36,147 nt of DNA from a virus (taxonomy: Duplodnaviria > Caudoviricetes): the IMG/VR virus record IMGVR_UViG_3300044858_003222, positions 1-36,147 of that record; one strand, given 5' to 3'. Shown here piece after piece: positions 2,586-31,537 of this stretch. Every line of letters starts with the position of its first letter. The stretch's first letter is position 1. The position numbers were made by a program, and so were the translations under genes. A model generated the notes under the pieces. It saw only the letters and a program-made list of their open reading frames with translations, made no database searches and had not been told where the DNA came from.

Positions 2586-2649
2586 AAAAAGCCCCCATAT
2601 AAAATATATACAGGGGCATAATGACCATAACTAAACCTTATTGCTAAGG
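2586..2649 (-). ncRNA. Candidate small RNA cassette 1
   Basis: TATATTTG box at 2650..2657 (minus), then hairpin CCTTA-GCAA-TAAGG, then TTTAGTTATGGTCATTAT, then terminator GCCCC...GGGGCTTTTT; no plausible ORF. Confidence 0.55.
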
Positions 2650-2697
2650 CAAATATAATGAAAATACCTTTTAACTTTTGATTAACAAACGAGATAT

Positions 2698-2705
2698 TAC
2701 TTTTG
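2698..2705 (+). promoter_or_regulatory. Bacteroidota-type -7 promoter box
   Basis: TACTTTTG with TTTG at 2677..2680; ATG at 2725. Confidence 0.6.
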
Positions 2706-2724
2706 CACTATAAAATTTAAAACA

Positions 2725-2898
2725 ATGAATGAAACTTTTGACACTTGCGTTTACATTTTGAAAAATATTGCTTATATACTCGGTGTTACTTACGAGGAAA
2801 TAAATGTATGGATATTCTGTATTATTTGGCCAATTTTAACTATTTGGCTAGCTTATATGGCTTTTGGGAAAAAAATAAAAAGAAAAATTATTTCTTAG
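2725..2898 (+). CDS. Small membrane protein, 57 aa
   Basis: Own translation MNETFDTCVYILKNIAYILGVTYEEINVWIFCIIWPILTIWLAYMAFGKKIKRKIIS; transmembrane segment plus basic tail; own promoter and A-rich leader. Not in the ORF track. Confidence 0.75.
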   Translation: MNETFDTCVYILKNIAYILGVTYEEINVWIFCIIWPILTIWLAYMAFGKKIKRKIIS

Positions 2899-3901
2899 GT
2901 TTTCCTGTTTTTTCATCAAAGTATATTCTTCCGTAAATTTTTTGAGGAGAAACAAATCCTGCTTTTGCAAATTTACCAAGAGCGGTAGATAATAGGTTTG
3001 TATTTTCTCCGGAAGTTCCACTTGTTGGGTCTACATCCCAAACGTCTGAATAGCTAAGATATGTGCCATCTTTATCTTTTTTAACACCAAGAGTTCCTTG
3101 TCCAAGACCGGGAACTTTCATCACATAACCCCCCTTTCCTTTTTCATAAGGAAGGCCTGATTCTGTTAATAATTTTTCCAAATCGGCTTCTGAACGTATT
3201 CCGGATTCTAGAATTTTTCTACCCTGTTCTGTTTGGGTAAACATGTTATTTAAGATGTCACTTTCAATGGCTTTTGACTTCATGTATTTTGAGCCCTTCT
3301 GCGCACCGATTGATGGCTTATATTCCGATGGTTCAAGAGTGTTATATTGCTGTGGTTTATTAGCAAACATATTTAACAAATCTATCCTTGTTCTTGCTTC
3401 ATTAGAAGGCTGTCCGGTGTATGGGTCAACTCCTTCTTTTGCGGCCATTTCAGTCAAAAGTCTATTCGGTTCTTTCTTACCAAGAGCAGTATTTACTGCA
3501 CGACCATACCAAGGCATTTCTTCTCCTGTTTGCACATCAACATCATCATAACTATATGGATTTATGTTTTCGGAAAGATTACTTAAAGCCTTTCTAGTTA
3601 ATAAAGATTCTTGATAAAATGGACCGCTGATAGGGTTCGTAAGAGCCTCATTTGTCATTATATCAGCAAAAATATTTGCCGCTTTACCAAGCATTTTTTT
3701 GCCAAACGCTGGTTCTTCTTTTTGTTTTTTCTTTGGCTTTTGAGCCTCTTGCTGAGATACTTGCTGAGATATTTTTGATAACAATGCATTGCTAGCCGCA
3801 TCTTCCCCTTCTTGCAAAAACGGCAATCTACTAGCCGGCGAATTTAAATTTCTAAATCCACCATAAGATTTAAAAGGAGGCTGTGTTATACCAAGCAGCA
3901 T
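2888..3901 (-). CDS. Hypothetical protein, 337 aa
   Basis: Long ORF with a consensus promoter; low-complexity N-terminus, globular-looking C-terminus (LSYSDVWDVDP...KIYGRIYFD). Confidence 0.8.
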   Translation of the reverse strand: MLLGITQPPFKSYGGFRNLNSPASRLPFLQEGEDAASNALLSKISQQVSQQEAQKPKKKQKEEPAFGKKMLGKAANIFADIMTNEALTNPISGPFYQESLLTRKALSNLSENINPYSYDDVDVQTGEEMPWYGRAVNTALGKKEPNRLLTEMAAKEGVDPYTGQPSNEARTRIDLLNMFANKPQQYNTLEPSEYKPSIGAQKGSKYMKSKAIESDILNNMFTQTEQGRKILESGIRSEADLEKLLTESGLPYEKGKGGYVMKVPGLGQGTLGVKKDKDGTYLSYSDVWDVDPTSGTSGENTNLLSTALGKFAKAGFVSPQKIYGRIYFDEKTGKPKK

Positions 3902-3915
3902 TGTTTCAGTTTTTA

Positions 3916-3945
3916 CAAATATACCACAAAATCACAGATTCACAA
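3916..3945 (-). promoter_or_regulatory. Consensus Bacteroidota promoter TTG-N19-TATATTTG
   Basis: Minus strand: TTG at 3943..3945, 19-nt spacer, TATATTTG at 3916..3923; ATG at 3901. Confidence 0.7.
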
Positions 3946-4340
3946 CCGCCCCAAACGAAAAAAAACACCAAAAACCCAAAAAAAAATTTTGAAAATCTGA
4001 CAATTAATTTAATTAATGAACACGAAGCGAAACGCGCTTGGACACGGAGGGGGTGACGTTTTAAAACGGGGGGTGTCGTTTCCTTCGGGCAAATGGCAAA
4101 GCCAGAGCCAGAGGGGTAGGGGTTTCCGTTTTCAGTTTCATTTCGGGCATGTGTTGGGCTTAGTAGCTTAACGGGTTGGGGGGTCTGGCAATACATTGGC
4201 GGTGGTTGGCTGTTTTAGGTATGTTTTAGGGTGGTTGGTAGTGTGTGTAGGGGGGTAATATCATTTTGAAAAAATAGGGGCCTTAATGGGCTTTATTTTG
4301 AATATTTTGATTTTAGGTTTAAATATGGGCTATTTTTAAG
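3946..4340. other. Non-coding, G-rich, strand-asymmetric region (possible packaging/terminus or origin region)
   Basis: C/A-rich up to ~3985, G/T-rich with many G-runs over 4040..4285; perfect palindrome CGTTTTAAAACG at 4057..4068. Confidence 0.5.
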
Positions 4341-4400
4341 CTAATTAAGTTAATTTTATAGACATAATTAACTTAATTTTATTAAAATATTTTTCAGAAT

Positions 4401-4478
4401 CGTAACATTTTTTTGTTTTTATCGTAACAAATCGTAACTTAGCGTAACAAAACGTAACAAATCGTAACAAATCGTAAC
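4401..4478 (+). repeat. CGTAAC repeat array with exact 10-bp phasing
   Basis: CGTAAC starts at 4401, 4423, 4433, 4443, 4453, 4463 and 4473. Confidence 0.95.
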
Positions 4479-4480
4479 AC

Positions 4481-4750
4481 ATGATAAAGAAGAAAGAAAA
4501 CTGCAAATATTGCGGTGAAAAAATGGAAAGCAGAACTGCTAAAAAAAGTTTTTGTTCTGAAAAATGTAGAGTGTATTTTAACAGGGAGTCTAAGTGCTCA
4601 AAAACCCTACTTGAAATTATAGATACCACTGGAGAACCTAATATCTTAGCTAATTTACCCATCAAAGAAGTGGGTAATAAAAAACAAATGCCTAAAGGAC
4701 TCAGTATTCAAGAACGTATAGAATGGTTAGAAGAAAATGAGAAACTATAA
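4481..4750 (+). CDS. Zinc-finger protein (CxxC...FCSxxC)
   Basis: CKYCGE...KKSFCSEKCR; ATG lies 2 nt after the repeat array. Confidence 0.7.
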   Translation: MIKKKENCKYCGEKMESRTAKKSFCSEKCRVYFNRESKCSKTLLEIIDTTGEPNILANLPIKEVGNKKQMPKGLSIQERIEWLEENEKL

Positions 4751-4925
4751 TTTAAGATGCAATTACGAACAATTAGTGGTTAAGCTATCGCTAATTGCAA
4801 ACGAAAAGGTCAAAAACCTAAAATACTTATCAGACTACCAGCTTCTTTGCAGGCTTAATGAGCTTTTGGTAGGTTTAAATCTAATACCGTTTACGGAAGA
4901 AGAATTAGAAATGGACCTTGTATAA
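4737..4925 (+). CDS. Hypothetical protein
   Basis: Overlaps the previous gene and ends at a bidirectional-looking hairpin. Confidence 0.55.
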   Translation: MRNYNLRCNYEQLVVKLSLIANEKVKNLKYLSDYQLLCRLNELLVGLNLIPFTEEELEMDLV

Positions 4926-4993
4926 AAAAGCCCCCATTAAGAATAATAGGGGCCCTAACTAAATCAAACCAAAAAACACACATGAGAACTGTG
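4924..4993 (-). ncRNA. Candidate small RNA cassette 2, antisense to the start region of gene 10412..10693
   Basis: Promoter-like TAATTTTA at 4994..5001 (minus); terminator GCCCCTATTA-TTCT-TAATGGGGGC-TTTTTT at 4924..4953; 4956..4973 is identical to 10389..10406 and 4978..4985 to 10408..10415. Confidence 0.6.
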
Positions 4994-5029
4994 TAAAATT
5001 ATATTATTTTTTTGGTTTTTGATATATTT

Positions 5030-5560
5030 TTAGTTTAATACTAAATCTTTTCTGGTAAAATTTTCTTTTAATTTAATTACTAAGTCTAAATATATATCCC
5101 TAAACTGTTCGTTTGTATTAATTAAATCGTCAAATGACTTACATCCATACATCACAGTAGTGTGGTCGTACTTCCTTGTTTTACTTGTGGCTATTGTTTG
5201 ACCTATGGCTGCAAACCCATTACCCATTATTCTAGCTAACTTAAAGTATATAAATCTATAATTAACAATTTCACGATTACGGCTCCCATTTGCAAGTCTA
5301 GCAATATCATTACCAAATTTTTCATTACCAAATTTTTCTTTCATTACACTATCTATAAACTCTCTTAACATTAAAATTGGAATCTTTGGTATATCAGAAC
5401 TCTCATCTATCATTGTTAATACCTGTGGCTCATAACCAATCTTTTCCTTAAATTCTTTTTTAAACTTCTCAATAATCTTTGCCTCCAATCTTCTTTTGTA
5501 AAGCAATGTTTCTGTTTCAACTTCTGGTCTTTCTAAATACTCGTTTAACTCTAAGCTCAT
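5030..5560 (-). CDS. Protein with a DnaA C-terminal (domain IV)-like HTH
   Basis: RNREIVNYRFIYFKLAR...IGQTI...DHTTVMYGCK resembles DnaA R.R.I...R.IAMYL.R...IG..F..RDHTTV.HA; no AAA+ domain. Confidence 0.7.
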   Translation of the reverse strand: MSLELNEYLERPEVETETLLYKRRLEAKIIEKFKKEFKEKIGYEPQVLTMIDESSDIPKIPILMLREFIDSVMKEKFGNEKFGNDIARLANGSRNREIVNYRFIYFKLARIMGNGFAAIGQTIATSKTRKYDHTTVMYGCKSFDDLINTNEQFRDIYLDLVIKLKENFTRKDLVLN

Positions 5561-6099
5561 TTTTCAAATTTTTTCTTTACTAAATTTAATTTATGCCTGT
5601 ATTCTATTATTAAAGATTTTAATTCATCTCTTGTTGGTTTTGAAACTTGCCTAGCTTCTTCTTGTAAATACTCTACAATACCCGGTTCTTCTTCTTCTAA
5701 CTTACTCCTATACACATCAATGTTTCCTGATAGAAAACAATTATCATATTCTGATTGTGGCCGGCAATTTTGAGGAAGCCATCTTGTTGCGTAATTTTTC
5801 CTGCTTATAAAATGTCCACATTGAGCATCTTGCCATCTCATTAACTTTCCAGATGTATAACAAGCGACTATCCCCTCTTTGTTTGCGTATTTACATCTTA
5901 TATACTGGCTAAATACTGCATCTAAATCTTCAACTAAATGTGAAACACTTTCATCGTGCTGCTGTTCTTCATATTTCTCAACTCTTTTAGATGTGCTTTT
6001 TACTGTTGCGCATTGCTTGCACATTTTTTTAGAAAAATGATAATCTAAAACACCACAGGATATACAAATCTTTTTTTTATTAATTATTGTACTTCTCAT
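5557..6099 (-). CDS. NinG/Rap-like nuclease
   Basis: LDAVFSQYIR, CYTSG, QCGHFISR...TRW...NCRPQ...N; additional N-terminal CxxC pairs. Confidence 0.75.
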   Translation of the reverse strand: MRSTIINKKKICISCGVLDYHFSKKMCKQCATVKSTSKRVEKYEEQQHDESVSHLVEDLDAVFSQYIRCKYANKEGIVACYTSGKLMRWQDAQCGHFISRKNYATRWLPQNCRPQSEYDNCFLSGNIDVYRSKLEEEEPGIVEYLQEEARQVSKPTRDELKSLIIEYRHKLNLVKKKFEK

Positions 6100-6458
6100 T
6101 TTTTAAATAATTGTATAATTGGTACTAAAAATCCTTTTGACGTATCATTATCTCCACCTTTTTTTAAATACATTCCATCTGCGTAATATTTTCTAAGTTT
6201 TGCTTTTAATATTTCAACTTCAAATATGATAGCAAACCCAACCTCGTCTATTTTATATACCCAATAATCAGCATCAGTAGTTGCTATACCTGATGGCTTA
6301 CCTCTTGATTCATACTCTATAAAAACATTACCAGTTTTATGTGTCATTCGGTCTGTTTTTACTTCAACTTTTTTACCCTTTGCAAATATTTCATTTACCC
6401 AATCCTCGCCTGATTCACCAAAGTTTAAATCATGAGTAAAACTTGAAGAATACTTCAT
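6096..6458 (-). CDS. Conserved phage protein, putative PD-(D/E)XK nuclease fold
   Basis: DLNFGESGE...VEVKTD...TGNVFIEYESRGKPSGIATTDADYW. Confidence 0.6.
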   Translation of the reverse strand: MKYSSSFTHDLNFGESGEDWVNEIFAKGKKVEVKTDRMTHKTGNVFIEYESRGKPSGIATTDADYWVYKIDEVGFAIIFEVEILKAKLRKYYADGMYLKKGGDNDTSKGFLVPIIQLFKK

Positions 6459-6695: not shown

Positions 6696-6708
6696 TTTAT
6701 TTTTTTTA

Positions 6709-6837: not shown

Positions 6838-6841
6838 AAAG

Positions 6842-6937: not shown

Positions 6938-6954
6938 CATAAATAACTATAAAC

Positions 6955-7143: not shown

Positions 7144-7162
7144 ATACCTATAAAATATTGCA

Positions 7163-7930: not shown

Positions 7931-7939
7931 AATAAAACA

Positions 7940-9829: not shown

Positions 9830-9849
9830 TAATAAAAAACAAAAAAACA

Positions 9850-10197: not shown

Positions 10198-10268
10198 ATT
10201 AAATATTAATTAAATTAAAATTTTTAGTAGTTTTGTAAAAATGATTAATTTTATTAAAAATTAATTTT

Positions 10269-10391
10269 ATGGCAAAAGCTACAGGAAATTCAACAAAACT
10301 AAGCTTCGGGAAAAGAAAGGGCGGAAAAGCACAAAAAACACGAGGACCAAAACAAAAAGCCGTTTCTCAGTACCGAGGTCAAGGAAAATAA
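10269..10391 (+). CDS. Small basic protein, 40 aa, ending YRGQGK
   Basis: Own translation MAKATGNSTKLSFGKRKGGKAQKTRGPKQKAVSQYRGQGK; TAGTTTTG box at 10228..10235 upstream. Confidence 0.75.
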   Translation: MAKATGNSTKLSFGKRKGGKAQKTRGPKQKAVSQYRGQGK

Positions 10392-10411
10392 CTAAATCAA
10401 ACCAAATACAC

Positions 10412-10693
10412 ATGAACAAAAAATGCGCTTTAATTAAATCGTTATTGAAGGGTGACATCATCAACGTAAGTAATTCTATTAAACTTACCGGATATAGTAA
10501 TCCTGCTAGGGAAATACCAAGAGAAGTTGAAAAACCATTTGGTTGCGTTATTAGTAGGGTTAAGATGGAGGGTAGGGACCAATTTGGTAATTACGTTATG
10601 TGGTACGACTATCGTTTTAATCCTAGGATAGACGTTAATATAGCTGCAACTAAGAAAATGAAAGAATATTTAGAAAAAGAAACAGGTAGATAA
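10412..10693 (+). CDS. Hypothetical protein, possible winged-helix DNA-binding protein
   Basis: LLKGDIINVSNSIKLTGYSNPAREI...beta hairpin...DYRF. Confidence 0.6.
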   Translation: MNKKCALIKSLLKGDIINVSNSIKLTGYSNPAREIPREVEKPFGCVISRVKMEGRDQFGNYVMWYDYRFNPRIDVNIAATKKMKEYLEKETGR

Positions 10694-11121: not shown

Positions 11122-11336
11122 TACATGAATTTTCAACTCCTGTAAAAGTGCATACACCTCATGGCGCAGGTGAGTGTATCTTATTGATTGACTATGGATT
11201 AAATATAAATTCAGTTTGGCTAGTTAGGTTAAAGGGGGGTGTTGTTAAGCACTATTATTCGGAAGATATAAGGGTTTACGGAAACGCAATGAATGGCATG
11301 GGAGTTGATGTAGATATACCCCACAATTGGAAATAA
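11118..11336 (+). CDS. Hypothetical protein (start moved to ATG 11118)
   Basis: MIHEFSTPVKVHTPHGAG...; ATGA coupling with the previous gene. Confidence 0.7.
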   Translation: MIHEFSTPVKVHTPHGAGECILLIDYGLNINSVWLVRLKGGVVKHYYSEDIRVYGNAMNGMGVDVDIPHNWK

Positions 11337-11364
11337 ATTAGTAATTTTACAAAAATTAAATTAA

Positions 11365-11631: not shown

Positions 11632-11649
11632 TGATTTAACCCATTATTC

Positions 11650-11695
11650 AAAATGCCTTCAAAATTTTGGGGGCATTTTATTTTTATATCCTATA
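11650..11695 (+). terminator. Intrinsic terminator after groES
   Basis: AAAATGCCTTCAA...TTGGGGGCATTTT followed by a T-rich tail. Confidence 0.7.
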
Positions 11696-20297: not shown

Positions 20298-23200
20298 ATG
20301 GAAGATAACAGTTTTTTTTCTGAATCTGATGGTAATGTAGGTCAAAAACAAGAAAATCCTTTTCTTGAATTTGGTGGTAATATAAAACAAAAAGAAGATA
20401 ATCCATTTTCTGAATTTGGAGGTAGTTTAAAAAAAAAATCTACTCCTGTAGTATCTTCGGGTATACCATCACAATTACCAAGTCAGCCTGATTTTTTAAA
20501 GCAAGGAGCTTCATTAGCTGATAATAGTTTCTTAAAGGAGATTAGTAAATCTACTGCACAATCTGTTGGTCAACCATCTTCTAAGTCAAAATTACCATTA
20601 GAAGGCTTTAGTCAAAAGCAGATTGATTTGCTTAAGAAGGGAGTTGAAAAACCTGCTCAAAAAACGAGTGGCGGATTGATGATACCTACCAATTTGCCAA
20701 AGGAAGATGGGGAGGATAAGGATGAATGGAAGCTTAAAAATTTAGTTCAGAATGTATTTGCTAATTTTGAATTAGCAGGTACTAATTTATTAGCAGATGC
20801 TACTACATTAGTTAAAGACTTGTCTAAAAACCCTTATATTCCTGATGTATCTGCTGTGATGAAAGAAGCAGAAAAAAGTACAGGGAAGTCAATTCCTACT
20901 CCGTGGGAGTTAGACCCTCTTGGTGGTGTAATCAGAGGATTGCATGGTAATCAGGAAAGGATGAAAGAAGTTATTGCTAACAATCCTTTGCCAAATACAT
21001 TTTGGGGTAAGGCAGTGTCATCTGTTGCTAGTTTTGCTCCAGATATTGCAGCTACCGCATTATTGCCAGAAGCTAAATTAGCTCAAGGAGCAAGTTTTTT
21101 AACTAAAACGGGTAACTTATTATTAAATAATTTTACTAAATACATCACAACTAAGGAAGCTTTATCTGGATATGGGGAAGCTAGAAAAAAAGGTGAGGAT
21201 ATTGGAGAGGCTTCGTTAGAAGGCATAAAAGGAGCTGGTAGGGGCTTAAAAACAGGTGTTGAGCTTGCGATTCTTGGAGCAGGTAGTAATGTTGCTACCA
21301 AGTCGGTTATGAATAAGCTTGCACAGTATGGATTAGCGAATATGCCAACTAAAGAACTTGTTAATGCAGGTACAGACCTTCTTGCTTATAGTATAGCTAG
21401 TCCTTATGCTAATGCAGGATTAGAAGGTAGATTAGCTACTGCTGATGAAATTGCAAATGGGGCAGGTGTTGCTTTATTGTTTAGATTAAAAGGAGCAGCA
21501 GAAAATATTAAATCTAATGTAAAACTAAATAAGGCCTTAGAAGAAACCTTAGCAATGAAGCAAGGTGCTGCTGTTTCAAACTTTGTAGATGCTACACCTA
21601 AAAGTATTGTTGAAGTTTATAATTCAAAAGAAAGTGCCGATGAATTTCAATTAAGGGCATTAGCGGCTGCTAAAAAAGCAAGAGAAACTACGGATTTACA
21701 AAAGAAGGCAAAATATGTAGTTGAGGCTAGTACTCTTGTTAGGGCTGCTAATGTTAAGCAAGTTGCTGACATGGTTATTAATAACAGAGATGGATTTGCT
21801 GAATTGAAGGCAAGTGACTTACCTGAGAGTGCTAAAAACGAATTTTTACAAAAAGCTGAGGAAATAAATAAACTTCTAAATCCATTTGAAAAATCAAAGA
21901 CAGATTTAGATAATAAAATAAAAGAATCAGAAGATTTATTCTCTCAATTATCTCAACAGGCAGAACAATCTCAAGACCCAAATGAAAGAGCTCAACTTGA
22001 AGCTCAGGCAAGAGAAGCAAAAGATAGTGCAGAAAAATTTAGAAATGAATTAGCAGAAGTTAAGTTTAATCAAAATAGACCAGATGCTAATGCAGGGAAA
22101 GCTCCTGTAATGGAAGGAGAGGTTGCTCCTGCTGAAGTTAAAATTGGTGATAGTGTTCAATGGACATCTCAAGGCACAGACCAATTTACTGAACCAAGAA
22201 AAATAAAATCTATATCAGAAGATGGTAAATACGCTTTTGTAGAAGGTAGCGATACTGGTATACCTGTATCTGAATTATCAGTTACTGAAGTTAAACCAAC
22301 TGAAGTAAAGTCTGTAGAACAATTAAGAGCAGATGAGCAAGCTGAACTTGATTCTAAGATACCAAATGCAGAACAATACAGAGTAGATGGTAAGGTAGAT
22401 AGAAATAAATTAACGAATGAAGAAGATATAAAAGCTTTTGATGAAGTTTATAATAAATATGATAAGTTAATATCTCCTTTATTAGAGAAGCCAGCAGAAC
22501 AAAAGATAACGGTAGAATTGTTGTCATCTCAAGAGCCTCCTCAAAAAGAAGGAGAAACTATTGTTACATTAAGTGGTAAAACTGAATCGGAAAGAACTGC
22601 TTCTATTGAGCAAAGACAAAAAGATACTAAGGTTTCAGATAAAGTAGTGTCAGATAATGAAATAGTTCAAGCTGCTGAATCTTATTTTAAGAAAAGCGGA
22701 AACTATAAAAATAGCGCAGATGGGAGAGCTGAATTAAATAATTTAAGAATTAAGGCTAGGGAAAATGGCTTAACAATAGATACCGAAAGAGATGCTGTTA
22801 CAAAGTTAAATAAAGCAGGCAGACCTAGAAAGGTTCTTTACAATAATAAAGCTGATGGTGAAGCTGTTGTTGAGCCAAATGCTAAAACTTTAAGAGATAG
22901 GGATATAAATACTCAAAAAGTATATGAAGAACTTACGGATTCTGGAGTATTTTTAGATGTTGAATCTGGGTCTGGAAAAAGAATGAGTGCTTCTCAAATA
23001 GAGGCAGCTATTAAAGATATTAATGAAGGTATACCAAGCAAGCGTGCTAATAAGTATTTAGATGCTTTAGAAAAAGGTCTTGCAGAAGATGCCTTTCCTT
23101 TATACGATAAAGGTATGGGAGGGTTTGCTCCTAAATTAGTTGATATTAGAGCTCAATTGGGTGTTGAAAAAGAAATAGTCGGAGAGCCAATGGATGAGGT

Positions 23201-26200
23201 TGCATTGAATAAATTCTTAGATGAAGAATCAAAACTTACACCTGAAAAAGAACAAGACCTATTAGATAACGTAGAAAATTTACTTTATGAATACGAAACA
23301 ACAGAAGCAGGACCTGAAGGAAAGGTTCAACCAATTGAAGCCGGAGCAAAAGAAGGAGTTCCTTCAGAGGTTAAACCGTCTGAACCTACTAAAAGCGAAA
23401 GACAGGAAGCTAAACAAGAATTAAAACCTGTAAAAGAAAGTGCGGGAAAGCCAAAAGAAGAAGTTAAACCAACTGAATTTAAAGACTTTACGTCAAAAAG
23501 TGGTAATAAAGTTGTTGATGAAAAAGGTGAACCAAAAGTAGTATTTACTGGAACAAATGCAAATAAATTAAGTGATATTGATGCATTATATTTCGAAAAT
23601 GATAAGACTGTAAAAGAAAAACTATCAGATATGTCCCCACATTATCAAATATTTTTCACAGATAATAAGAACGAGGCAAAATCTTATGGTAAAAATACAT
23701 TTGAAGCAAATGTTTATATAAAAAATCCTGTTAAAAATAAAGCAGATTTAGTAAAAACAAAAAGTCAATTAATAAAAGAAGGATATGATGGATATATTTG
23801 GAAATCAGATGATGGCAGAACGCATTATATAGTATTTGACAAATCACAAATTCAAGAAGTTAAACCAACTGAGGTAAAAACAAAAGAAGAATACGAAAAA
23901 ATAAAATCTAATAAAAAGAAAAAGGATTTTGTAAGAAATAATCTACCTGAAGAATTTAAGCCATTGGCAGATGAATTAACAGAAGCCCAAATGTCTGAAA
24001 TAGTAGATAGTAATTTTGATTCAAAAACAATTAAAAATATACAAGATGCCATACAAAAGCAAAGCGCAGCAGAAGTACTTCAACCTAAACAGGAAGAAGT
24101 TGGAGGCACAGGGGGTGGACGTGAACGAGTGGAACAAGGAAAGCAAAGGGATGAGTCTACCGGAGAAGGCAAAGCCAAAGCCGCAGAAGAAACACAGCCC
24201 AAAGGTGCTAAGGAGGGCAAAGTAGAAGAACTTAAAACAAACGATAAATCAATCTTAAAAAGAATAACTGGTAGTGAAAATATATCAGATTCTGTAAAAG
24301 AGAAATTTAAAGATGATTTAAAATACGAAGTAAAAAGTAAAGAAGAAGCTAAAAGCATTGCTAAAAACATAATTAAAGAATATGGCACAGATGATGCTGT
24401 TACACTAGCTGAAGCTAATAAGTTTCATGGAGATGTAAATTCTTTTATATTTAGTGAAGCTATAAATGATACTTACATTAAAGAATCTGAGGCAAAAACA
24501 CCAGAGGAAAAATTAAAGTATGCTGAACAATGGGCTGATTACGCAATTAGATTTGATGAATCAGCTAGGTCTAAAGGTAGGTTTATATCTGCAATTTCTG
24601 ATTTCTACAAAAAATCACCTTTAGGTATAAAATTTGTAGAAAATGAAAGAAGAAACGAAGATTTTAAAAAATGGTATAAAGCCAAAGAGGGTTCATATAA
24701 AGAGGTGTTTGATGAATTGGTTCAAGACCCTAAGTTTAAATCTTTGATTGGTGAAGAAGTTCAAAAAGGATTAAAAGAAGAAAGAGCAGCTCAAAGACAA
24801 GCAAATAGAAAGAAGATTGAAGATTTTTTTGAAAATGCTAAATTAAAAGGCAATAATTTATACGCAGTACCTATTCCTCCTAAAGTTATTAATGGAGCAT
24901 TAGAAGTAATGAAACAATCTGTATTAGCAGGAGAAAGCGTAGTTTATGCTGTAAATAAAGCTATTGAGCACATATCTAAAGAAGTAAAAGATTGGGATAA
25001 GGAGAAGTTTAGAAAAGAATATGAAGCAAAATTATCTTCAATAGAGGGTAAAGCTGGTAAGAGAGAAAAAGAAGAACTTCCTGAAGATGCTAAAAATAGA
25101 ATACTTGATAAGTTTAGGAAAAAATTAAAAGGTCTTAAAGAAAGTCAAAAAGAGCAAGTAATTAGAAAATCATTTAAACAACTTGTTGAAAATGGAGCTT
25201 TAGAATATAATGACTTCAAAAAAATTATTTCTGAAACAATTGGATATGGTGAAATTACTCCAGAAGAAGCTGCAAAAATAACTAAGCTTGTTAATGATAT
25301 TAATTCAGTTGATGAATTAGCATCATCAATAAGAGATGAAGGGAATAGAACTGAGGCAAATTTATTAAAATACCAAAAAGCGAAAAAAGAAGCTGAAAAG
25401 TCAGCTACTGAATTAAATAAGATGGTATATAATAAGACTAATATATCTAATAGATTATTGTCTATTATGCAATTAAATACATTAGGTATACCTTCTTTGG
25501 TAAATAACCCTATTTTCAATATATGGAATCAGGCAACCGTAAGGTTCCCAAATGCTGTTTCTATGACAGTATTAGACCAGATTTTATATGGAGGAAGTAA
25601 AGTTTCTAATAAACTATTTGGAACAGTTATTTTATTACCAGAAAACAATGTACTTACTTCACAAAAAGAATTTTTTAAGAAAGGATTACAAGGAGGTAAA
25701 CTTTCAGCAGAACAATTATTTACAGGATTAACCAATAGGGATTATTTCCAAAAAGAAATATATAGCTCTCAGATTCATCCATTTACATCTATTAAGGATT
25801 TATGGGATTGGAAATTTAAAGGTAAGAATTTAACTCCGGCTCAGGTTGCCGACAAATCAATACAGGCGACAGTAGGTTTACCTGCTGAGATAGTAGCTAG
25901 GGCTTTGAATATTGGTGATAAACCTCAAAGATTTGCAGCAGAAGGTGCTCAGGCAGCAGTATTTGCTAAAAACCTTGGATTAAAAGATATTGATTATGAG
26001 TATTTCTTAGAATTTCCAAAAGAAGAAGCTTATCGAGCTTTTAAAAAACAAGGTTTTTCTGATGATGTTGCAATGAAAAAAGCAGAAGAAATACAAGAAA
26101 GAATTATTAAGCAAGGAGAAGAATCCACATTCCAGCAAGATAATTTATTAAATGATGCGGTAAATTCAGCATTTAAAGTATTCGGAACACCCGGTGAGAT

Positions 26201-27464
26201 TTTTAAGAAGTTTAATATGCCGTATCTTAAAATACCTTTAAATGCCTTTTGGTCTGTATATAATTTAGTTAATCCAGAAGTCGCTTTTTTACAATCTGCG
26301 GTATATGGAACAAAGGCTATAAAATCAGGTTCGTCATTAGATATTCAACAATCAAAAAAGTGGTTTGCTCATGGCGTTACAGGTATTGCATTAACTGGTA
26401 TTGCGGGTGCATTGGCTTCAAACGGAATAGTAAATTCTAATAATGCAGATGATACAACTAAAAAAGAGAGAATAGGAGAAAAAACCTATGAACAACAAAA
26501 TAGTATTAATGTAACTAAATTAAATGCATATTTAAGAGGTGAAAATCCTGATGATGTTAAAAATAGTTTAAATGTTGATTTAAAATGGTTTGGTAATGTT
26601 GGTAATATACTCAATGTAGAGTCAAGAAAGCTAGAAGAAATGACACCAGAGCAAAGAAAAAATGGTATGTCGTATATGGAAGATATGTTATCTAGTATGA
26701 AAATATCTAGCATGGAGTTAATAGAAAATGGAGTATTTTCAAATACATCTGGTTTGTTAACAGCAATAGATAAAGGTGGAAATTTTGCTGATGCCTATGT
26801 ATTGAATTTAATAAACATGGGAACAAATATTGTTCAACCTGCAATGTTTGCTCAAATGTCAAGAGCTGAATTGCCATACTACTCTCAGCAAAAAGCTGAT
26901 ACTTTTATGGAGCAATTGAAAAATAATTTACTCACTAGGTCATCGACATTAAGAGCTTTATCAGGAAAGTATCCTCCTTCTCAAATAGGAGTATGGGGAG
27001 ATAAGTTAGATAGAAAAGACAATATAGCAATGAAGCTGTTTGGAATAAGTTCTAATAACAATGATAATTTTGCACAACCCATATACAATGATTATAAAAA
27101 AACAGATAATACTGCATTTTTACCTCCATCAGTAAAACCAGAAGTTAATGGTTTTAAATTAAATACATCTGAGGCTAATAAATTAGAAATATTAGTTGGT
27201 CAAGCTAGAAAGAATTTAGTTGCCCCATTTGTAAATGATGGAGCTAAACTTAGCGGTTTTAAAGATAGGTATAGTAAATTATCTGAAGAAGATAAGGTAA
27301 AAGCATTGGGTATTATATATAAAATGGGATACCAAGTTGGAGAAAAGCAATTTACTGACTTATATCCGCAATTTTATAAATCAGATAAAAAAACACCTGA
27401 ACAAAAGAAAGAGTCTAAGGAAAGTTCAATTTTTAGAAAATCATTAAAAAAGTTTATTAGATGA
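20298..27464 (+). CDS. Giant internal virion (polyvalent/ejection) protein, 2388 aa
   Basis: N-terminal NPFxEFGG repeats, hydrophobic Gly/Ala segments, coiled coils, modular centre including an ART-PolyVal-like domain. Confidence 0.7.
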   Translation: MEDNSFFSESDGNVGQKQENPFLEFGGNIKQKEDNPFSEFGGSLKKKSTPVVSSGIPSQLPSQPDFLKQGASLADNSFLKEISKSTAQSVGQPSSKSKLPLEGFSQKQIDLLKKGVEKPAQKTSGGLMIPTNLPKEDGEDKDEWKLKNLVQNVFANFELAGTNLLADATTLVKDLSKNPYIPDVSAVMKEAEKSTGKSIPTPWELDPLGGVIRGLHGNQERMKEVIANNPLPNTFWGKAVSSVASFAPDIAATALLPEAKLAQGASFLTKTGNLLLNNFTKYITTKEALSGYGEARKKGEDIGEASLEGIKGAGRGLKTGVELAILGAGSNVATKSVMNKLAQYGLANMPTKELVNAGTDLLAYSIASPYANAGLEGRLATADEIANGAGVALLFRLKGAAENIKSNVKLNKALEETLAMKQGAAVSNFVDATPKSIVEVYNSKESADEFQLRALAAAKKARETTDLQKKAKYVVEASTLVRAANVKQVADMVINNRDGFAELKASDLPESAKNEFLQKAEEINKLLNPFEKSKTDLDNKIKESEDLFSQLSQQAEQSQDPNERAQLEAQAREAKDSAEKFRNELAEVKFNQNRPDANAGKAPVMEGEVAPAEVKIGDSVQWTSQGTDQFTEPRKIKSISEDGKYAFVEGSDTGIPVSELSVTEVKPTEVKSVEQLRADEQAELDSKIPNAEQYRVDGKVDRNKLTNEEDIKAFDEVYNKYDKLISPLLEKPAEQKITVELLSSQEPPQKEGETIVTLSGKTESERTASIEQRQKDTKVSDKVVSDNEIVQAAESYFKKSGNYKNSADGRAELNNLRIKARENGLTIDTERDAVTKLNKAGRPRKVLYNNKADGEAVVEPNAKTLRDRDINTQKVYEELTDSGVFLDVESGSGKRMSASQIEAAIKDINEGIPSKRANKYLDALEKGLAEDAFPLYDKGMGGFAPKLVDIRAQLGVEKEIVGEPMDEVALNKFLDEESKLTPEKEQDLLDNVENLLYEYETTEAGPEGKVQPIEAGAKEGVPSEVKPSEPTKSERQEAKQELKPVKESAGKPKEEVKPTEFKDFTSKSGNKVVDEKGEPKVVFTGTNANKLSDIDALYFENDKTVKEKLSDMSPHYQIFFTDNKNEAKSYGKNTFEANVYIKNPVKNKADLVKTKSQLIKEGYDGYIWKSDDGRTHYIVFDKSQIQEVKPTEVKTKEEYEKIKSNKKKKDFVRNNLPEEFKPLADELTEAQMSEIVDSNFDSKTIKNIQDAIQKQSAAEVLQPKQEEVGGTGGGRERVEQGKQRDESTGEGKAKAAEETQPKGAKEGKVEELKTNDKSILKRITGSENISDSVKEKFKDDLKYEVKSKEEAKSIAKNIIKEYGTDDAVTLAEANKFHGDVNSFIFSEAINDTYIKESEAKTPEEKLKYAEQWADYAIRFDESARSKGRFISAISDFYKKSPLGIKFVENERRNEDFKKWYKAKEGSYKEVFDELVQDPKFKSLIGEEVQKGLKEERAAQRQANRKKIEDFFENAKLKGNNLYAVPIPPKVINGALEVMKQSVLAGESVVYAVNKAIEHISKEVKDWDKEKFRKEYEAKLSSIEGKAGKREKEELPEDAKNRILDKFRKKLKGLKESQKEQVIRKSFKQLVENGALEYNDFKKIISETIGYGEITPEEAAKITKLVNDINSVDELASSIRDEGNRTEANLLKYQKAKKEAEKSATELNKMVYNKTNISNRLLSIMQLNTLGIPSLVNNPIFNIWNQATVRFPNAVSMTVLDQILYGGSKVSNKLFGTVILLPENNVLTSQKEFFKKGLQGGKLSAEQLFTGLTNRDYFQKEIYSSQIHPFTSIKDLWDWKFKGKNLTPAQVADKSIQATVGLPAEIVARALNIGDKPQRFAAEGAQAAVFAKNLGLKDIDYEYFLEFPKEEAYRAFKKQGFSDDVAMKKAEEIQERIIKQGEESTFQQDNLLNDAVNSAFKVFGTPGEIFKKFNMPYLKIPLNAFWSVYNLVNPEVAFLQSAVYGTKAIKSGSSLDIQQSKKWFAHGVTGIALTGIAGALASNGIVNSNNADDTTKKERIGEKTYEQQNSINVTKLNAYLRGENPDDVKNSLNVDLKWFGNVGNILNVESRKLEEMTPEQRKNGMSYMEDMLSSMKISSMELIENGVFSNTSGLLTAIDKGGNFADAYVLNLINMGTNIVQPAMFAQMSRAELPYYSQQKADTFMEQLKNNLLTRSSTLRALSGKYPPSQIGVWGDKLDRKDNIAMKLFGISSNNNDNFAQPIYNDYKKTDNTAFLPPSVKPEVNGFKLNTSEANKLEILVGQARKNLVAPFVNDGAKLSGFKDRYSKLSEEDKVKALGIIYKMGYQVGEKQFTDLYPQFYKSDKKTPEQKKESKESSIFRKSLKKFIR
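22287..23872 (+). repeat. Dispersed direct repeat GAAGTTAAACCAACTGA (encodes EVKPTE), three copies
   Basis: Copies at 22287..22303, 23460..23476 and 23856..23872. Confidence 0.9.
23287..23424 (+). CDS. Possible overprinted +1-frame ORF, 45 aa
   Basis: MNTKQQKQDLKERFNQLKPEQKKEFLQRLNRLNLLKAKDRKLNKN. Confidence 0.35.
   Translation: MNTKQQKQDLKERFNQLKPEQKKEFLQRLNRLNLLKAKDRKLNKN
24046..24225 (+). CDS. Overprinted +1-frame small basic protein (MPYKSKAQ...), 59 aa
   Basis: TAATTTTG box at 24011..24018, A-rich leader, N-terminus resembling stand-alone phage MP(F/Y)KSxAQ proteins. Confidence 0.65.
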   Translation: MPYKSKAQQKYFNLNRKKLEAQGVDVNEWNKESKGMSLPEKAKPKPQKKHSPKVLRRAK

Positions 27465-27682
27465 CGTTAGAAGATTTCAGAGAATTGACAGCAGGCCTTA
27501 ATGGTGACACAGAAATGTATATATTTGCAAATGACACACTATTCCCTATATGTATAGAGGATAGTGGTATTTTGGATTTAACTAATGATAATCATGAAAT
27601 TACGGTAATATCCCTAACGGCTTGTGACCATAATGAAGGAGGCAAGTATAAGGTAGGGTTGCCGGATATAATACTAAATTAA
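27461..27682 (+). CDS. Hypothetical acidic protein
   Basis: ATGA overlap with the giant gene. Confidence 0.65.
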   Translation: MTLEDFRELTAGLNGDTEMYIFANDTLFPICIEDSGILDLTNDNHEITVISLTACDHNEGGKYKVGLPDIILN

Positions 27683-27685
27683 CAC

Positions 27686-28036
27686 ATGGAAACAATTGAA
27701 GAACTAAAAAACACAATTAAAGATTTAGAAAAGAAATTACAGTATTCTGAATCTCAGAAAAATGTTTATGAGAATGGTGATGCCAAGCTATATTACGCTT
27801 TACAGCGAAAGATGAGCGAAATGGCTAACACGTTAAATAAACAAAACTTAGAGAATATTGACATTGATAGCAAGGATAGTAAGTCTTTTGATAGAATTAT
27901 TACTATACTTCAGAAGTGTGAAACAATATCATCTTCAGCTTCTGCGTTAGGTGCAATAGCCGGTGTTACAGGTGATGAGCAAAAAGACATTGCTAAGAAA
28001 CCATTTGTAGAAACCATTGCTGAAAGCAGAAAATAA
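27686..28036 (+). CDS. Helical protein, terminase small subunit candidate
   Basis: Position directly upstream of TerL is the only evidence for function. Confidence 0.4.
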   Translation: METIEELKNTIKDLEKKLQYSESQKNVYENGDAKLYYALQRKMSEMANTLNKQNLENIDIDSKDSKSFDRIITILQKCETISSSASALGAIAGVTGDEQKDIAKKPFVETIAESRK

Positions 28037-28039
28037 CCT

Positions 28040-30091
28040 ATGCTAGAAACCATAAAAATATATGGCACGGAAATTCAACTTCCGGAAAAGCCTGATGCGT
28101 CTGATATAGAAAATTGGGGTACAGATGACCCCAATGAACAGTATTGGAGAAGAAAAGAAATACCTGCATTTTTATCTCTTGTAGAATATGATGGTGATGG
28201 TAATGCGCTATTAAATGCAGAGCAAGCCGCTTATGCTAATAGAGAAGTTCTAAGATGCAAGAAAGGATTCTGGTTTTACAATAATGGTATTCCAACTTAC
28301 ATAACAGGTAAAAATTACTTTTATTTAAGCTTTTGGAAACTAGAGGATGATATATACCCTGATTATAGAGATACAGATAGAAGGTACTTTTTATTTTTGG
28401 ACCACTGGGAAAGAACCCCTTGGTGCTTAGGTATTGTAAGAGGTAAGAAAAGACGTGAGGGTGCTACTTCGGTAGCCACTTCTAACTTGGTTTATGAATG
28501 TATATTTTACAAGAATAGCTTCTGCGGTTTAACGAGTAAAACCCAAGTGGATGCTAAGGCTGCATTTACAAACATGGTTTCTTTTGGTTACAGGCAGTTG
28601 CCAGTATTTTTAAAACCAAAGCAATTAAATAATAAAGATAGCGTTAGTGAATTAGTATTTGCTCATAAATCAGTAGAGGTAAGGGGAGCTAAGGGAAGTA
28701 TAGTAGATACAGATACAGGACATAGGTCTAGGATTGATTATAGAGCCCCTTCTTTGAACTCTTATGACTCAGGACGACTAAGTAGAGGGTTATTTGATGA
28801 GGGTGGAAAATGGGCAAAAGAAAACCCTTTTTCTACATTTATATCAATCGTAAGTAAGACTCTTGTAAAGGGTGCTAAAAGGGTTGGATTTATAGAGTGT
28901 CCATCTACATCAAACTCAATGACAAGTGGTGGTGAGGAGTTTAAGAATGTATGGGATGGAGCAGACCATTTAAAATATCCAAAGACACCTAACCGATTGG
29001 TTAAATACTTTGCTCCGGCTTATGATGGATACTTAGGTTTTATTGACAAGTTTGGAATGAGTGTTATTAATGAGCCTACAGAAGAACAATATAAGTTTTT
29101 AGTTGAGTATTATGTTGGAGCTGGTGACTTGGATGAAAGTGATATAAGGCTAGGAGCTAAGAAGTATTTAGAGCAAAAGAGAAAGCAATTAGAAGGCGTA
29201 CAATTAGAAGAAGAAATAAGGATGAATCCTTTTGATGAAAGGGAAATGTTTATGCTTCGGAACAATAATTGTCACTTCGATGCCGTTGTATTGAATGACT
29301 TATATGAACTAGCAAAGGTGAACGAAAGTTCGGCTGTTGAATATGGCAACTATGTTTGGGAGGGTGGCATACCTTTTACAAAAGCTGTTTGGCATAAATG
29401 TGATGAAGAAAGCGCAAGATGGCATAGAGCTAAGGATTTTAAGACACCAGAAGAAACGTACGAGAAAAGAGGTAGCTTGTTTATACCAAAGAACTATGTT
29501 CAGTTTGTAAGTGCGGTTGACCCCTTTCAGAACTCAGTAGTTGAATCAGGAGAGGGCTCTAAGGCTAGTAGCTTTGTGATGAACAGGTATGATAAGGGAG
29601 ATAATGACCCGATATTCGACAGGATGCTGGTTTCAAAGTATCACGCTAGGCCTAAAATGGTAGAGCTTTTCCACATGGATATGGCTTTGCAATGCTTTGC
29701 ATACGGAGGTCAATTACTTGTGGAGGCTAAGATGGACGGAGGGTTAAGGAAGTTCTTTATAGATAATTACTTAGAAATGTTTCTAATGAAACTACCAAAT
29801 AAAGATACTTATGGCGTTGACCCTAATGCTGATAATAAGGCTTTAATGGTTAACTTATGGGAGCAGTACATACTTACAAGTGGTAAAGATGGAAAGATAA
29901 TATACCCTAATTTGATAGATGATAAGTATGATGGATTATTAAAGTTCAATGTTAATGATACAGAAGTATCGGATTTGGTAATGGGAGGCGGATGGACTTT
30001 ATTTGCAGATTATTATAAAAAGGTTAATTTAAAAAAAGTAGAAAATAAAACTAAGCTTTCTGATTTTTTTGCCATGAAACCAACACGCTAA
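28040..30091 (+). CDS. terL: Terminase large subunit (crAss-like type)
   Basis: GFWFYNNG.PTYITG, KKRREGAT (Walker A variant), GLFDEGGKW (Walker B), STSN, SAVDPF nuclease motif. Confidence 0.85.
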   Translation: MLETIKIYGTEIQLPEKPDASDIENWGTDDPNEQYWRRKEIPAFLSLVEYDGDGNALLNAEQAAYANREVLRCKKGFWFYNNGIPTYITGKNYFYLSFWKLEDDIYPDYRDTDRRYFLFLDHWERTPWCLGIVRGKKRREGATSVATSNLVYECIFYKNSFCGLTSKTQVDAKAAFTNMVSFGYRQLPVFLKPKQLNNKDSVSELVFAHKSVEVRGAKGSIVDTDTGHRSRIDYRAPSLNSYDSGRLSRGLFDEGGKWAKENPFSTFISIVSKTLVKGAKRVGFIECPSTSNSMTSGGEEFKNVWDGADHLKYPKTPNRLVKYFAPAYDGYLGFIDKFGMSVINEPTEEQYKFLVEYYVGAGDLDESDIRLGAKKYLEQKRKQLEGVQLEEEIRMNPFDEREMFMLRNNNCHFDAVVLNDLYELAKVNESSAVEYGNYVWEGGIPFTKAVWHKCDEESARWHRAKDFKTPEETYEKRGSLFIPKNYVQFVSAVDPFQNSVVESGEGSKASSFVMNRYDKGDNDPIFDRMLVSKYHARPKMVELFHMDMALQCFAYGGQLLVEAKMDGGLRKFFIDNYLEMFLMKLPNKDTYGVDPNADNKALMVNLWEQYILTSGKDGKIIYPNLIDDKYDGLLKFNVNDTEVSDLVMGGGWTLFADYYKKVNLKKVENKTKLSDFFAMKPTR

Positions 30092-30714
30092 TGTGGACAG
30101 ATTTTTTTGATAAAATACTCGTTATAAATCTACCAAGTAGGACAGATAGGTTATTGCAAATAGCTGAAGAACTTTATAAATGGGGTATACCATACGAATT
30201 GGTTAATGCAACCCCACACGAAAATGGAGCAGAAGGTTTAAGAATTACCGTAGAAAAGATATTCAGAGATGCGATTTCTAATAATTTAAAATCTGTTTTG
30301 ATATTTGAAGATGATGCAATGTTTGTAGATAGCTGTGGAAACCCTAATGACACTATGGAGCAAGTAGTAAAGCAATTGCCTCCTACTTGGCAGATATTGT
30401 ATTTAGGAGCTCAATGCACAAATGGGTTTAAGGCAAAGCCATCAAATAATTTACTTTTACTAGACATGGCATTTGCGACACACGCATGGGCTGTATCTCT
30501 TGATGGAATGAAGGAGATATTGGCAGCAGGATTAGAGGCTCCGATAGACAATTGCGTAGTAAAAACAGTCCAACCAAATGGACATACGTACATAACATAT
30601 CCATTACTTTGCACTCAAAGACCCGGATATAGCGACATAGGAAGAACCGAAATAAATTGGCAGCCTTTTATAGAGCAGCGATATTATCAAAAATTTTCTG
30701 AATCAAACCTTTAA
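30091..30714 (+). CDS. GT25-like glycosyltransferase
   Basis: VINLPSRTDR, LIFEDDA, WQILYLG, THAW, QRPGYSDI. Confidence 0.8.
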   Translation: MWTDFFDKILVINLPSRTDRLLQIAEELYKWGIPYELVNATPHENGAEGLRITVEKIFRDAISNNLKSVLIFEDDAMFVDSCGNPNDTMEQVVKQLPPTWQILYLGAQCTNGFKAKPSNNLLLLDMAFATHAWAVSLDGMKEILAAGLEAPIDNCVVKTVQPNGHTYITYPLLCTQRPGYSDIGRTEINWQPFIEQRYYQKFSESNL

Positions 30715-30716
30715 CA

Positions 30717-31412
30717 ATGCAACAGATAAGTATTTGTATCCCAACTTGGAATAGGGTAGAAATGACCCTAAATAGCTTTAAAAAAGTTTATGATGACGCT
30801 AGAATAGACACTATTGTAATAGTAGATGACGCTAGTGATATTGATGTGTATACTAGACTTAAAGAAGAATGTGATAAGTTAAGTAAGGTTAAGCTTTACC
30901 GAAATGTCACAAATCAAGATTGTTATGCCAACAAATTCGTAGCTGTTAGCTATTCACCAACAGATTATTGCATACTTTTAGATAGTGATAATCAAATAGA
31001 TGAAACATACATAGATAAGATATATTCTCAAACTTGGGATAAGAAAACAATATTAGCCCCTGATTTCGCAAAACCATTATTTGATTATACAGAATTTAGT
31101 GGGTTGACAATATCTAAGGATAATGTAGCAAAATATATGGATAGGCCGTTCTTTGCCACTTGCTTAAATTGCATGAACTATTTTGTTTCTGCAATGGATT
31201 ATGTAAAGGTTTGGGATGCAAATACGGACCCACATAGCTCAGATAGTATATATCAAAACATGAACTGGTTTAAATGGGGTAATAAAATGCACATAGTACC
31301 GGGTATGCAATACGAGCACTTGGTTCACGATGAATCACACTATAAGCTAAATTGTAACATAGACCCAGAATTTTATCAAAAAGTTGAAGAAGAACTGAGG
31401 AATATGAAATAA
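30717..31412 (+). CDS. GT2-family glycosyltransferase
   Basis: ISICIPTWNR, VIVDDASD, ILLDSDN. Confidence 0.85.
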   Translation: MQQISICIPTWNRVEMTLNSFKKVYDDARIDTIVIVDDASDIDVYTRLKEECDKLSKVKLYRNVTNQDCYANKFVAVSYSPTDYCILLDSDNQIDETYIDKIYSQTWDKKTILAPDFAKPLFDYTEFSGLTISKDNVAKYMDRPFFATCLNCMNYFVSAMDYVKVWDANTDPHSSDSIYQNMNWFKWGNKMHIVPGMQYEHLVHDESHYKLNCNIDPEFYQKVEEELRNMK

Positions 31413-31430
31413 ATTATTTATTTTAGTATC

Positions 31431-31537
31431 GCTTAATTCATAAATAAATGGTTAGTTGTTAAATAAGACATACCCCCGAAAACAAGACGTTCAAGCCCCC
31501 CTGCGTGAATTAAGCCGTCTTGTCGTAGGGGGCTTTT
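31431..31537 (+). ncRNA. Structured intergenic RNA or attenuator with terminator hairpin (cassette 3)
   Basis: 31431..31440 pairs with 31506..31515; 31482..31489 with 31516..31523; 31493..31505 with 31524..31535; ends in TTTT. Confidence 0.65.

What the first reader, a model, noticed from the sequence alone, without database searches (positions are those of the whole stretch)
2586..31537. Family of three promoter/short RNA/terminator cassettes with a shared TTAGTT core: candidate phage anti-translation-initiation sRNA system
Seen: three intergenic units (2586..2649 minus, 4924..4993 minus, 31431..31537 plus). Each begins just after a -7-like box (TATATTTG, TAATTTTA, TATTTTAG). Each has a U/G-rich middle containing TTAGTT (GGTTTAGTTA, GATTTAGTTA, GGTTAGTTG) and ends in GCCCC...GGGGGCTTTT. 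The complement AACTAA lies shortly before several start codons here (2306, 10412, 13204, 18775, 32872). Known: Bacteroidota initiate translation on A-rich leaders without Shine-Dalgarno sites. Inference: these are trans-acting sRNAs that occlude A/C-rich start regions of phage or host mRNAs. I know of no description of such a family but cannot search.
Basis: partly seen in the sequence, partly recalled or inferred. Interest (0 to 1): 0.8.

Follow-up and report, generated by a model that had tools for sequence, protein, structure and literature searches.

The report
Phage RNAs mirroring own start regions
A freshwater virus that likely infects Bacteroidota bacteria carries two conserved short non-coding units, predicted to make ~65-70-base RNAs complementary to the start regions of its own genes, so they likely damp translation of a probable DNA-binding regulator and a probable recombination gene pair, while the third unit is likely a different element, a leader switch in front of sugar-modifying genes.

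Summary
The three units are real: the hairpin-plus-U pattern occurs 3 times versus 0 in shuffles, and each unit is more conserved than its flanking genes. The shared TTAGTT core is not special (48 found, 48 expected), and they are not one family.

U2 (4924-4993) pairs over 27 nt with the start of ORF 10412, a predicted winged-helix protein (-34.6 versus about -18 to -21 kcal/mol for shuffles). In IMG/VR the motif occurs only at these two sites; one relative changes both sides together.

U1 has a canonical promoter box and pairs best with the leaders of the adjacent exonuclease and probable annealing-protein genes; support is moderate.

U3 has no target; its 5' word matches its own terminator loop, it sits 4 nt before a glycosyltransferase start, and it is likely a cis attenuator.

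Relatives carry 62 similar cassettes in 16 clusters, enriched for anti-AUG and a UUCU terminator loop, mostly without a clear own-genome target. No RNA evidence was obtained. U1 and U2 would work like FopS/GibS but are not members. The scan reported both designs before on other DNA.

The parts
2650..2657 (-). U1 promoter -7 box TATATTTG (predicted)
   Evidence: invariant in 11 distinct relatives while the DNA upstream is about 65% identical; motif enriched before genes, 83 of 241 vs 8.8
2586..2649 (-). U1: predicted ~62-64-nt RNA; free 5' body (seed about 2625-2634), terminator stem 2591-2617, U run 2586-2590
   Evidence: fold; body 92% and hairpin 93% identical in relatives vs 83% for the next gene; stem kept in 10 of 10, no double-sided change
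2306..2315 (-). U1 candidate site 1: leader and first base of ORF 1689-2306 (probable Rad52-like annealing protein)
   Evidence: 10-nt complement intact in 9 of 9 distinct relatives, one mismatch in the window; Rad52_Rad22 is a lead only, on 11% of one Atlas cluster
1693..1721 (-). U1 candidate site 2: leader (-34 to -6) of exonuclease ORF 935-1687
   Evidence: best of 39 starts, -21.4 vs shuffles -14.6 +/- 1.3, 0 of 20; rank 3 of 2869 windows genome-wide; weakened without compensation in 3 of 9 relatives
4994..5001 (-). U2 box TAATTTTA: possible non-canonical promoter or processing site, 29 nt after the stop of ORF 5030-5560
   Evidence: invariant in 8 relatives; same box type in 6 of 16 cassette clusters; not enriched before genes
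4924..4993 (-). U2: predicted ~68-70-nt RNA; anti-leader and anti-AUG about 4956-4986, terminator stem 4930-4953 with UUCU loop, U run 4924-4929
   Evidence: body 99% and hairpin 100% identical in 8 distinct relatives vs 86% and 81% for the flanking genes; seed opening cost 1.2 kcal/mol
10389..10415 (+). U2 target site: -23 to +4 of ORF 10412, beginning at the stop codon of mini-ORF 10269-10391
   Evidence: duplex -34.6, best of 39 starts and of 2870 windows; paired change at 4965/10398 in L004
10412..10693 (+). U2 target gene: 93-aa predicted winged-helix protein
   Evidence: Atlas neighbours HTH_39, score 0.92-0.94; model pLDDT 93; Foldseek top rows are winged helices, all weak, E >= 0.013
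5003..5032 (-). A-rich stretch that would mask the U2 seed in a read-through 3' UTR
   Evidence: fold; seed opening cost 13.0 vs 1.2 kcal/mol; does not covary with U2
31419..31426 (+). U3 box TATTTTAG (possible promoter)
   Evidence: an AT-rich box of like form directly precedes the GT11 start in relatives lacking U3; motif not enriched
31431..31537 (+). U3: ~107-nt leader; word a 31431-31440 and word b 31483-31489 complement the terminator loop 31506-31523; stem 31495-31533; GT11 start at 31542
   Evidence: 10-nt loop complement in 0 of 2000 shuffles; 1 variable column of 111 in 7 relatives vs 59 of 303 and 71 of 299 in the flanks; absent from the 14 loci with 76-81% GT11 identity

Best explanation
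U1 and U2 are conserved non-coding units predicted to give ~65-70-nt RNAs with a free U/G-rich 5' body and a terminator hairpin, which likely repress translation in trans by pairing over the leaders of the phage's own genes (U2 on the predicted winged-helix gene 10412, U1 on the probable annealing-protein and exonuclease pair), while U3 is likely a separate cis leader that would gate expression of the glycan genes. Shown: the sequences, their conservation and their complementarity. Inferred: transcription, RNA ends, pairing in the cell and repression. Steps: (1) host RNA polymerase fires at the U1 box; U2 comes from its own non-canonical box or is cut from the 3' UTR of ORF 5030-5560. (2) The GC hairpin ends and protects the RNA. 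(3) The open body covers the adenines at -3, -6, -12 and -13 that Bacteroidia use instead of a Shine-Dalgarno site (PMC9976891); U2 also covers the AUG. (4) As the RNA accumulates, output of these early genes would be capped or delayed. In U3, pairing of words a and b into the terminator loop would compete with or strain the terminator and so set read-through into GT11.
For: U2 and the 10412 leader share the only dispersed 18-mer outside coding or tandem repeats in the window. Duplex -34.6 vs shuffles -17.6 +/- 1.6 (0 of 12) and -21.2 +/- 2.1 (0 of 20). The IMG/VR scan found 20 sites on 11 contigs of one clade: both sites on all 9 contigs that span both, U2 only on 2 shorter ones. L004 changes G to A in U2 and C to T in the target; the swap costs 6 kcal/mol one way and leaves a G-U pair the other way. 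U1 cluster: cognate -20.1 vs non-cognate -10.0, best of 31. A second clade's cassette (cluster 4) also fits its own operon best, and the G004 cassette's top start is its own exonuclease (1 of 12 shuffles). Family-wide, 10 of 16 clusters have an anti-AUG vs 2.9 expected, and 5 clusters have members lying back-to-back with an opposite-strand gene, so those cannot be 3' UTRs. Precedent: FopS, ~65-70 nt, same architecture, blocks initiation in vitro (PMC11697453).
Against: No RNA data: the three RNA-labelled runs are contigs and show no discrete transcript. The U2 covariation is one event in one contig, and gene conversion between direct repeats could mimic it. The U2 box is not an enriched promoter motif, and U2-type cassettes follow a same-strand stop codon by 0-43 nt wherever an upstream gene was called. 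U2-like cassettes in G004-G011 and most other clusters have no outstanding own-genome target; only 2 of 14 clusters reach the top tenth in the cognate test, and none does for the primase start. The window's U1 has a mismatch in the seed for ORF 1689 and was not significant with the narrower start window (2 of 12; 15 of 40); I widened that window after seeing the exonuclease hit. The exonuclease pairing decays in 3 of 9 relatives. U3 has no covarying homolog.
Confidence: 0.6

Rival explanations
1. U2 is only the 3' UTR and terminator of the leftward operon. Its likeness to the 10412 leader is a duplicated translation start (the plus strand reads a 4-codon mini-ORF) kept alike by gene conversion, or it acts in cis on its own mRNA. 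U1 and U3 are plain terminators.
For: U2-type cassettes follow a same-strand gene closely; the box is not enriched; a cis hairpin with 5003-5032 is predicted; distant U2-like units lack targets.
Against: The body is 99% conserved against 81-86% for the coding flanks. The gene upstream differs between clades while box, body and hairpin persist. The poly-A length difference between the two copies is not homogenised in L004. U1 has a canonical invariant box, and divergent cassettes exist.
Confidence: 0.15
2. One reading: all three units are one sRNA family whose TTAGTT core broadly occludes A/C-rich starts of phage or host mRNAs.
For: U2 and U3 read backwards score as generic start regions with AUG (3.9% and 1.75% of shuffles); AACTAA is modestly enriched before starts; one GTDB match to the U2 motif is the start of a SusC-like gene; most relatives' cassettes lack a phage target, so host targets remain open; the window is about half a genome.
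Against: TTAGTT is at chance level. U1's complement hit 2 of 251 host-family genomes vs 9 control hits. U3's hit 73 of 251 with the control ringing at a similar rate by inspection, and the 7 of 25 examined loci that open long ORFs are all different genes. U3 is longer, has its own loop complement and abuts a start codon.
Confidence: 0.12
3. The 18-bp repeat is a DNA operator for the winged-helix protein 10412, placed at its own leader and at the U2 locus.
For: The target gene encodes a predicted winged helix; the repeat occurs exactly twice per genome.
Against: The match extends over the AUG across a 3-nt bulge and its variants are G-U compatible. A 76%-identical homolog in L010-L012 has no such site. 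An operator need not change at both copies together.
Confidence: 0.08
4. The RNAs are decoys for a host RNA-binding protein, with the UUCU-capped hairpin or the U/G tract as the ligand, and pairing is incidental.
For: UUCU loop in 10 of 16 clusters vs 1 of 67 other strong hairpin-plus-U sites, and that one is itself a cassette missed by the filter; many cassettes lack targets.
Against: It does not explain the 27-nt match and paired change of U2; U1's loop is not UUCU.
Confidence: 0.05

Closest known systems
FopS family of Bacteroides thetaiotaomicron (Rfam RF04319; PMC11697453, passages and section 8 read)
   Same: ~65-70 nt, single-stranded 5' seed plus intrinsic terminator, pairing at the translation initiation region in a phylum without SD use; one member is 3'-UTR-derived; a copy is reported in a phage
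   Different: no match to the covariance model; FopS paralogs share one seed and repress host susC-type mRNAs, whereas these seeds differ between units and clades and the best targets are the phage's own genes
GibS sRNA (PMC7366714, passages read)
   Same: long unstructured AU/GU-rich 5' seed spanning start codons; pairs without a protein in vitro
   Different: 145 nt, two seeds, chromosomal, metabolic targets; no Rfam hit here
Phage antisense RNAs sar (P22), OOP and aQ (lambda) (review PMC12197685, part 2 of 6 read); c4 of P1/P7 (recalled)
   Same: phage RNAs that repress the phage's own regulatory genes by base pairing
   Different: sar, OOP and aQ are encoded opposite their targets (recalled); U2 lies 5.4 kb away and pairs imperfectly in trans; Proteobacterial hosts
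Guanidine-IV (GGAM-1) riboswitch (PMC7736828, passages read), for U3 only
   Same: 5' leader in which upstream sequence pairs into the loop of an intact terminator, just before a start codon
   Different: no Rfam match, no guanidine-related gene downstream; U3's partner word is a 5' tail rather than a clear hairpin loop

Membership tests
FopS (RF04319) | Match to the family model at 56 bits | tested here: not met
   0 of 5 phage records over the cut-off, best 17.2 bits, no hit on a cassette; the control rang over the cut-off in 1 of 14 genomes;
FopS (RF04319) | ~65-70 nt, single-stranded 5' part plus terminator | tested here: met
   predicted for U1 and U2; family median 62 nt, a range bounded by my filter; not met by U3
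FopS (RF04319) | Canonical sigma-ABfr promoter | tested here: inconclusive
   U1 box canonical and invariant; U2 and U3 boxes not enriched
FopS (RF04319) | Pairs at translation initiation regions | tested here: met
   predicted only: strong for U2, moderate for U1
FopS (RF04319) | Multicopy paralogs sharing the R1 seed; susC-type host targets | tested here: not met
   U1-U3 share only a chance-level hexamer; no recurring host target
FopS (RF04319) | Binding to RbpB; expression as a discrete RNA | not testable with these tools
   contig data only
GibS | Rfam match; 145 nt; two seeds | tested here: not met
   no hit
cis-encoded phage antisense RNAs (sar, OOP, aQ) | Transcribed from the strand opposite the target | tested here: not met
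   U2 is 5.4 kb from its site; U1 is 0.3 and 0.9 kb upstream on the same strand
Guanidine-IV riboswitch (U3) | Rfam match and guanidine-related downstream gene | tested here: not met
   the downstream gene is GT11
Loop-pairing terminator leaders (uncatalogued; earlier scan notes), U3 | Upstream word complementary to the terminator loop, directly before a gene | tested here: met
   10 nt, 0 of 2000 shuffles
Loop-pairing terminator leaders (uncatalogued; earlier scan notes), U3 | Covariation of word and loop across relatives | tested here: inconclusive
   7 relatives nearly identical; the 3 other candidates among 57 big-loop sites are at the chance rate of 6%

The most novel reading that the evidence does not exclude
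Bacteroidota podophages carry a reusable small-RNA scaffold (box, exchangeable ~30-nt guide, UUCU-capped terminator) whose guide is copied or retuned from translation leaders, read by one common host or phage protein, and used as an RNA-only programme to time their own early genes and to silence host or competing-phage genes.
Probability: 0.2. Interest if true: 0.82.

Novelty: new variant of a known kind. Interest (0 to 1): 0.56.

Why it matters
Trans-acting sRNAs in Bacteroidota are described from Bacteroides chromosomes. Six keyword searches listed no paper on phage-encoded ones aimed at the phage's own leaders; these searches cover open-access text only. U2 and the 10412 leader give a small, exact pair with a natural compensatory allele, so a two-plasmid reporter can test directly how an RNA blocks initiation where there is no Shine-Dalgarno site. 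The UUCU terminator loop is a searchable mark for finding more. Interest is held down because the mechanism matches FopS/GibS, no transcript is shown, and most related cassettes have no identified target.

Tried and rejected
Rfam: no hit at E <= 1 on the whole window; only sub-threshold terminator-like hits on short stretches; FopS model negative.

Reads: runs X18-X20 are contigs. X19 covers 2256-2514 exactly but neither unit; X20 (RNA label guessed) has a relative's piece over 2522-2662. This says nothing on expression. A second laying, to find more 4965/10398 variants, showed 40 of 404 differences and neither place.

No excess or recurring target was found.

Primase start as target of the plus-strand cassettes: suggested by L134 and L139, rejected by the cognate test, none of 10 clusters in the top tenth.

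U3 as a trans RNA: no target among 39, 51 or 23 starts in three contigs. Homologs with other letters were not found; 7 of 14 pattern hits are the same clade and the other 7 look unrelated.

The sigma-70 scan is not suited to this phylum (55 found vs 52.5 expected). No covariance model was built, because the three units do not align and close relatives are nearly invariant. Complex prediction was not used. FopS sequences in figures and supplements were not seen, so the comparison rests on the Rfam model.

Full report
Setting. The window is a whole 36,147-nt virus contig, about 53% complete. It holds recombination, replication, virion, terminase and glycan-modification genes. Its nearest cultured relatives are distant Flavobacterium and Cellulophaga phages (terminase 29%), and runs that hold it are mostly freshwater. 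Its SSB is closest to 13 of 301 sampled Bacteroidota genomes. A Bacteroidota host is inferred, not shown.

Observation. The hairpin-plus-U pattern occurs 3 times against 0 in 100 shuffles. TTAGTT occurs 48 times against 48.25 expected, so it does not define a family. AACTAA before starts is only modestly enriched. Rfam has no match. All three units are more conserved than their flanking genes: U2 body 99% vs 81-86% in 8 relatives, U1 body 92% vs 83% in 11, and U3 1 variable column of 111 in 7.

U2. Its body is complementary to -23 to +4 of ORF 10412: 18 exact bases, a 3-base bulge, then the last leader bases and the AUG. It ranked first of 2870 genome windows (-34.1, mean -11.7, sd 3.5) and first of 39 starts, beyond all shuffles (0 of 12; 0 of 20), with both partners open. 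A scan of 2.9 million viral contigs found the motif at 20 sites on 11 contigs, only at U2 and at this leader; all 9 contigs that span both have both. GTDB gave 3 hits, 2 of them at long-ORF starts. In L004 both sides change together, and the cross pairs show a tolerated G-U route and a costly A-C route. This is one event; two more contigs carry the U2 allele but end before the target. The target leader was 99% identical in 8 relatives, second of 15 leaders compared. ORF 10412 models as a winged helix with weak structural matches. Against: the U2 box is not an enriched motif, U2-type units follow a same-strand gene closely, and U2-like units of other clades have no clear target. U2 may therefore be 3'-UTR-derived, and this target is clade-specific.

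U1. It has the canonical box (83 of 241 vs 8.8), which stays fixed while the DNA upstream is replaced. It lies upstream of the operon 2324-1689-935. In the window its best start is the exonuclease leader (0 of 20 shuffles), after I widened the start window; with the narrower window it was not significant. In 9 of 9 distinct relatives a 10-nt seed matches the leader of ORF 1689; the window has one mismatch there, and the exonuclease pairing is weak in 3 of 9. The cluster fits its own clade's two leaders better than all 30 foreign sets. Support is moderate and rests on one clade.

U3. It has no target better than shuffles in three contigs. Its first 10 bases and a second 7-base word are complementary to 17 of the 18 bases of its own terminator loop (0 of 2000 shuffles reach 10). 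An alternative long hairpin uses the same bases. The GT11 start follows 4 nt after the U run. U3 is present in 7 close relatives and absent in the 14 loci with 76-81% GT11 identity, where an AT-rich box directly precedes the start. I read it as a cis attenuator-like leader; I took the class name from earlier scan notes after finding the complement myself. No covarying homolog was found. Its 5' part still scores as an anti-start sequence (1.75% of shuffles), so a dual role is not excluded.

Family. In 156 exonuclease loci and 21 whole contigs, a filter blind to targets found 62 distinct cassettes in 16 clusters. 10 of 16 carry an anti-AUG vs 2.9 expected. 10 of 16 have a member with a UUCU terminator loop vs 1 of 67 other strong hairpin-plus-U sites, many of which are not real terminators. 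5 clusters have members lying back-to-back with an opposite-strand gene. Cognate leaders beat foreign ones on average in 11 of 14 clusters, but clearly in only 2. The design is therefore widespread and the targets are mostly unknown. Host searches were negative.

Mechanism and comparison. Bacteroidia initiate on upstream adenines without SD pairing (PMC9976891, passages). FopS and GibS block such regions with long single-stranded seeds (PMC11697453, passages and section 8; PMC7366714, passages). U1 and U2 have the FopS anatomy and would work like it, but fail the membership test. Known phage antisense RNAs against phage regulators are reviewed in PMC12197685 (part 2 of 6 read). The U3 design recalls the loop-pairing terminator of guanidine-IV riboswitches (PMC7736828, passages). 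No transcript was shown. Six searches (listings only) gave no description of this phage system. The scan noted both designs in other genomes and nothing on this clade; those notes are not independent evidence.

Verdict. A real, conserved RNA-level feature with one strong predicted RNA-target pair, one moderate pair and one unit of another kind. New variant of a known kind; interest 0.56.

Noticed in passing
window 4423-4489: 10-nt tandem repeat (at least 5 copies) ending at the start of ORF 4481, beside a non-coding stretch with GC-rich patches (about 3900-4480); possible origin or terminus signal
   Followed up: no
window 4324-4779: A contig in run X1 skips this stretch, and relatives differ in gene content here; likely a variable gene slot
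   Followed up: no
window 10269-10391 (+): Conserved 40-aa basic mini-ORF (90-100% identity in relatives) whose stop codon is the first triplet of the U2 site; possible translational coupling to 10412
   Followed up: partly
window 11655-11679 (+): GC hairpin kept in G003, G006, G007 and G010 in front of the second GroES-like gene; the true start is probably 11719
   Followed up: no
window 20298-27464 (+): 2388-aa protein with an ADP-ribosyltransferase domain of the polyvalent-protein type (PF18760)
   Followed up: no
window 30091-35834 (+): Eight-gene glycan-modification cluster (glycosyltransferases, epimerase, methyltransferases) right after the terminase
   Followed up: no
window 2545-2570 (-), 10198-10260, 11331-11364, 35831-35864 (+): Recurrent AT-only motif ending in a -7-like box before genes; probably the phage's usual promoter form
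   Followed up: partly
G004:9353-9375 (L051): The box of the U2-like cassette is embedded in a terminator hairpin of the opposite strand
   Followed up: no
L289:1501-1524 (-): Polaribacter SusC-like gene (my reading of its N-terminus) whose leader nearly equals the U2 target motif; hints that the guide resembles susC leaders
   Followed up: partly
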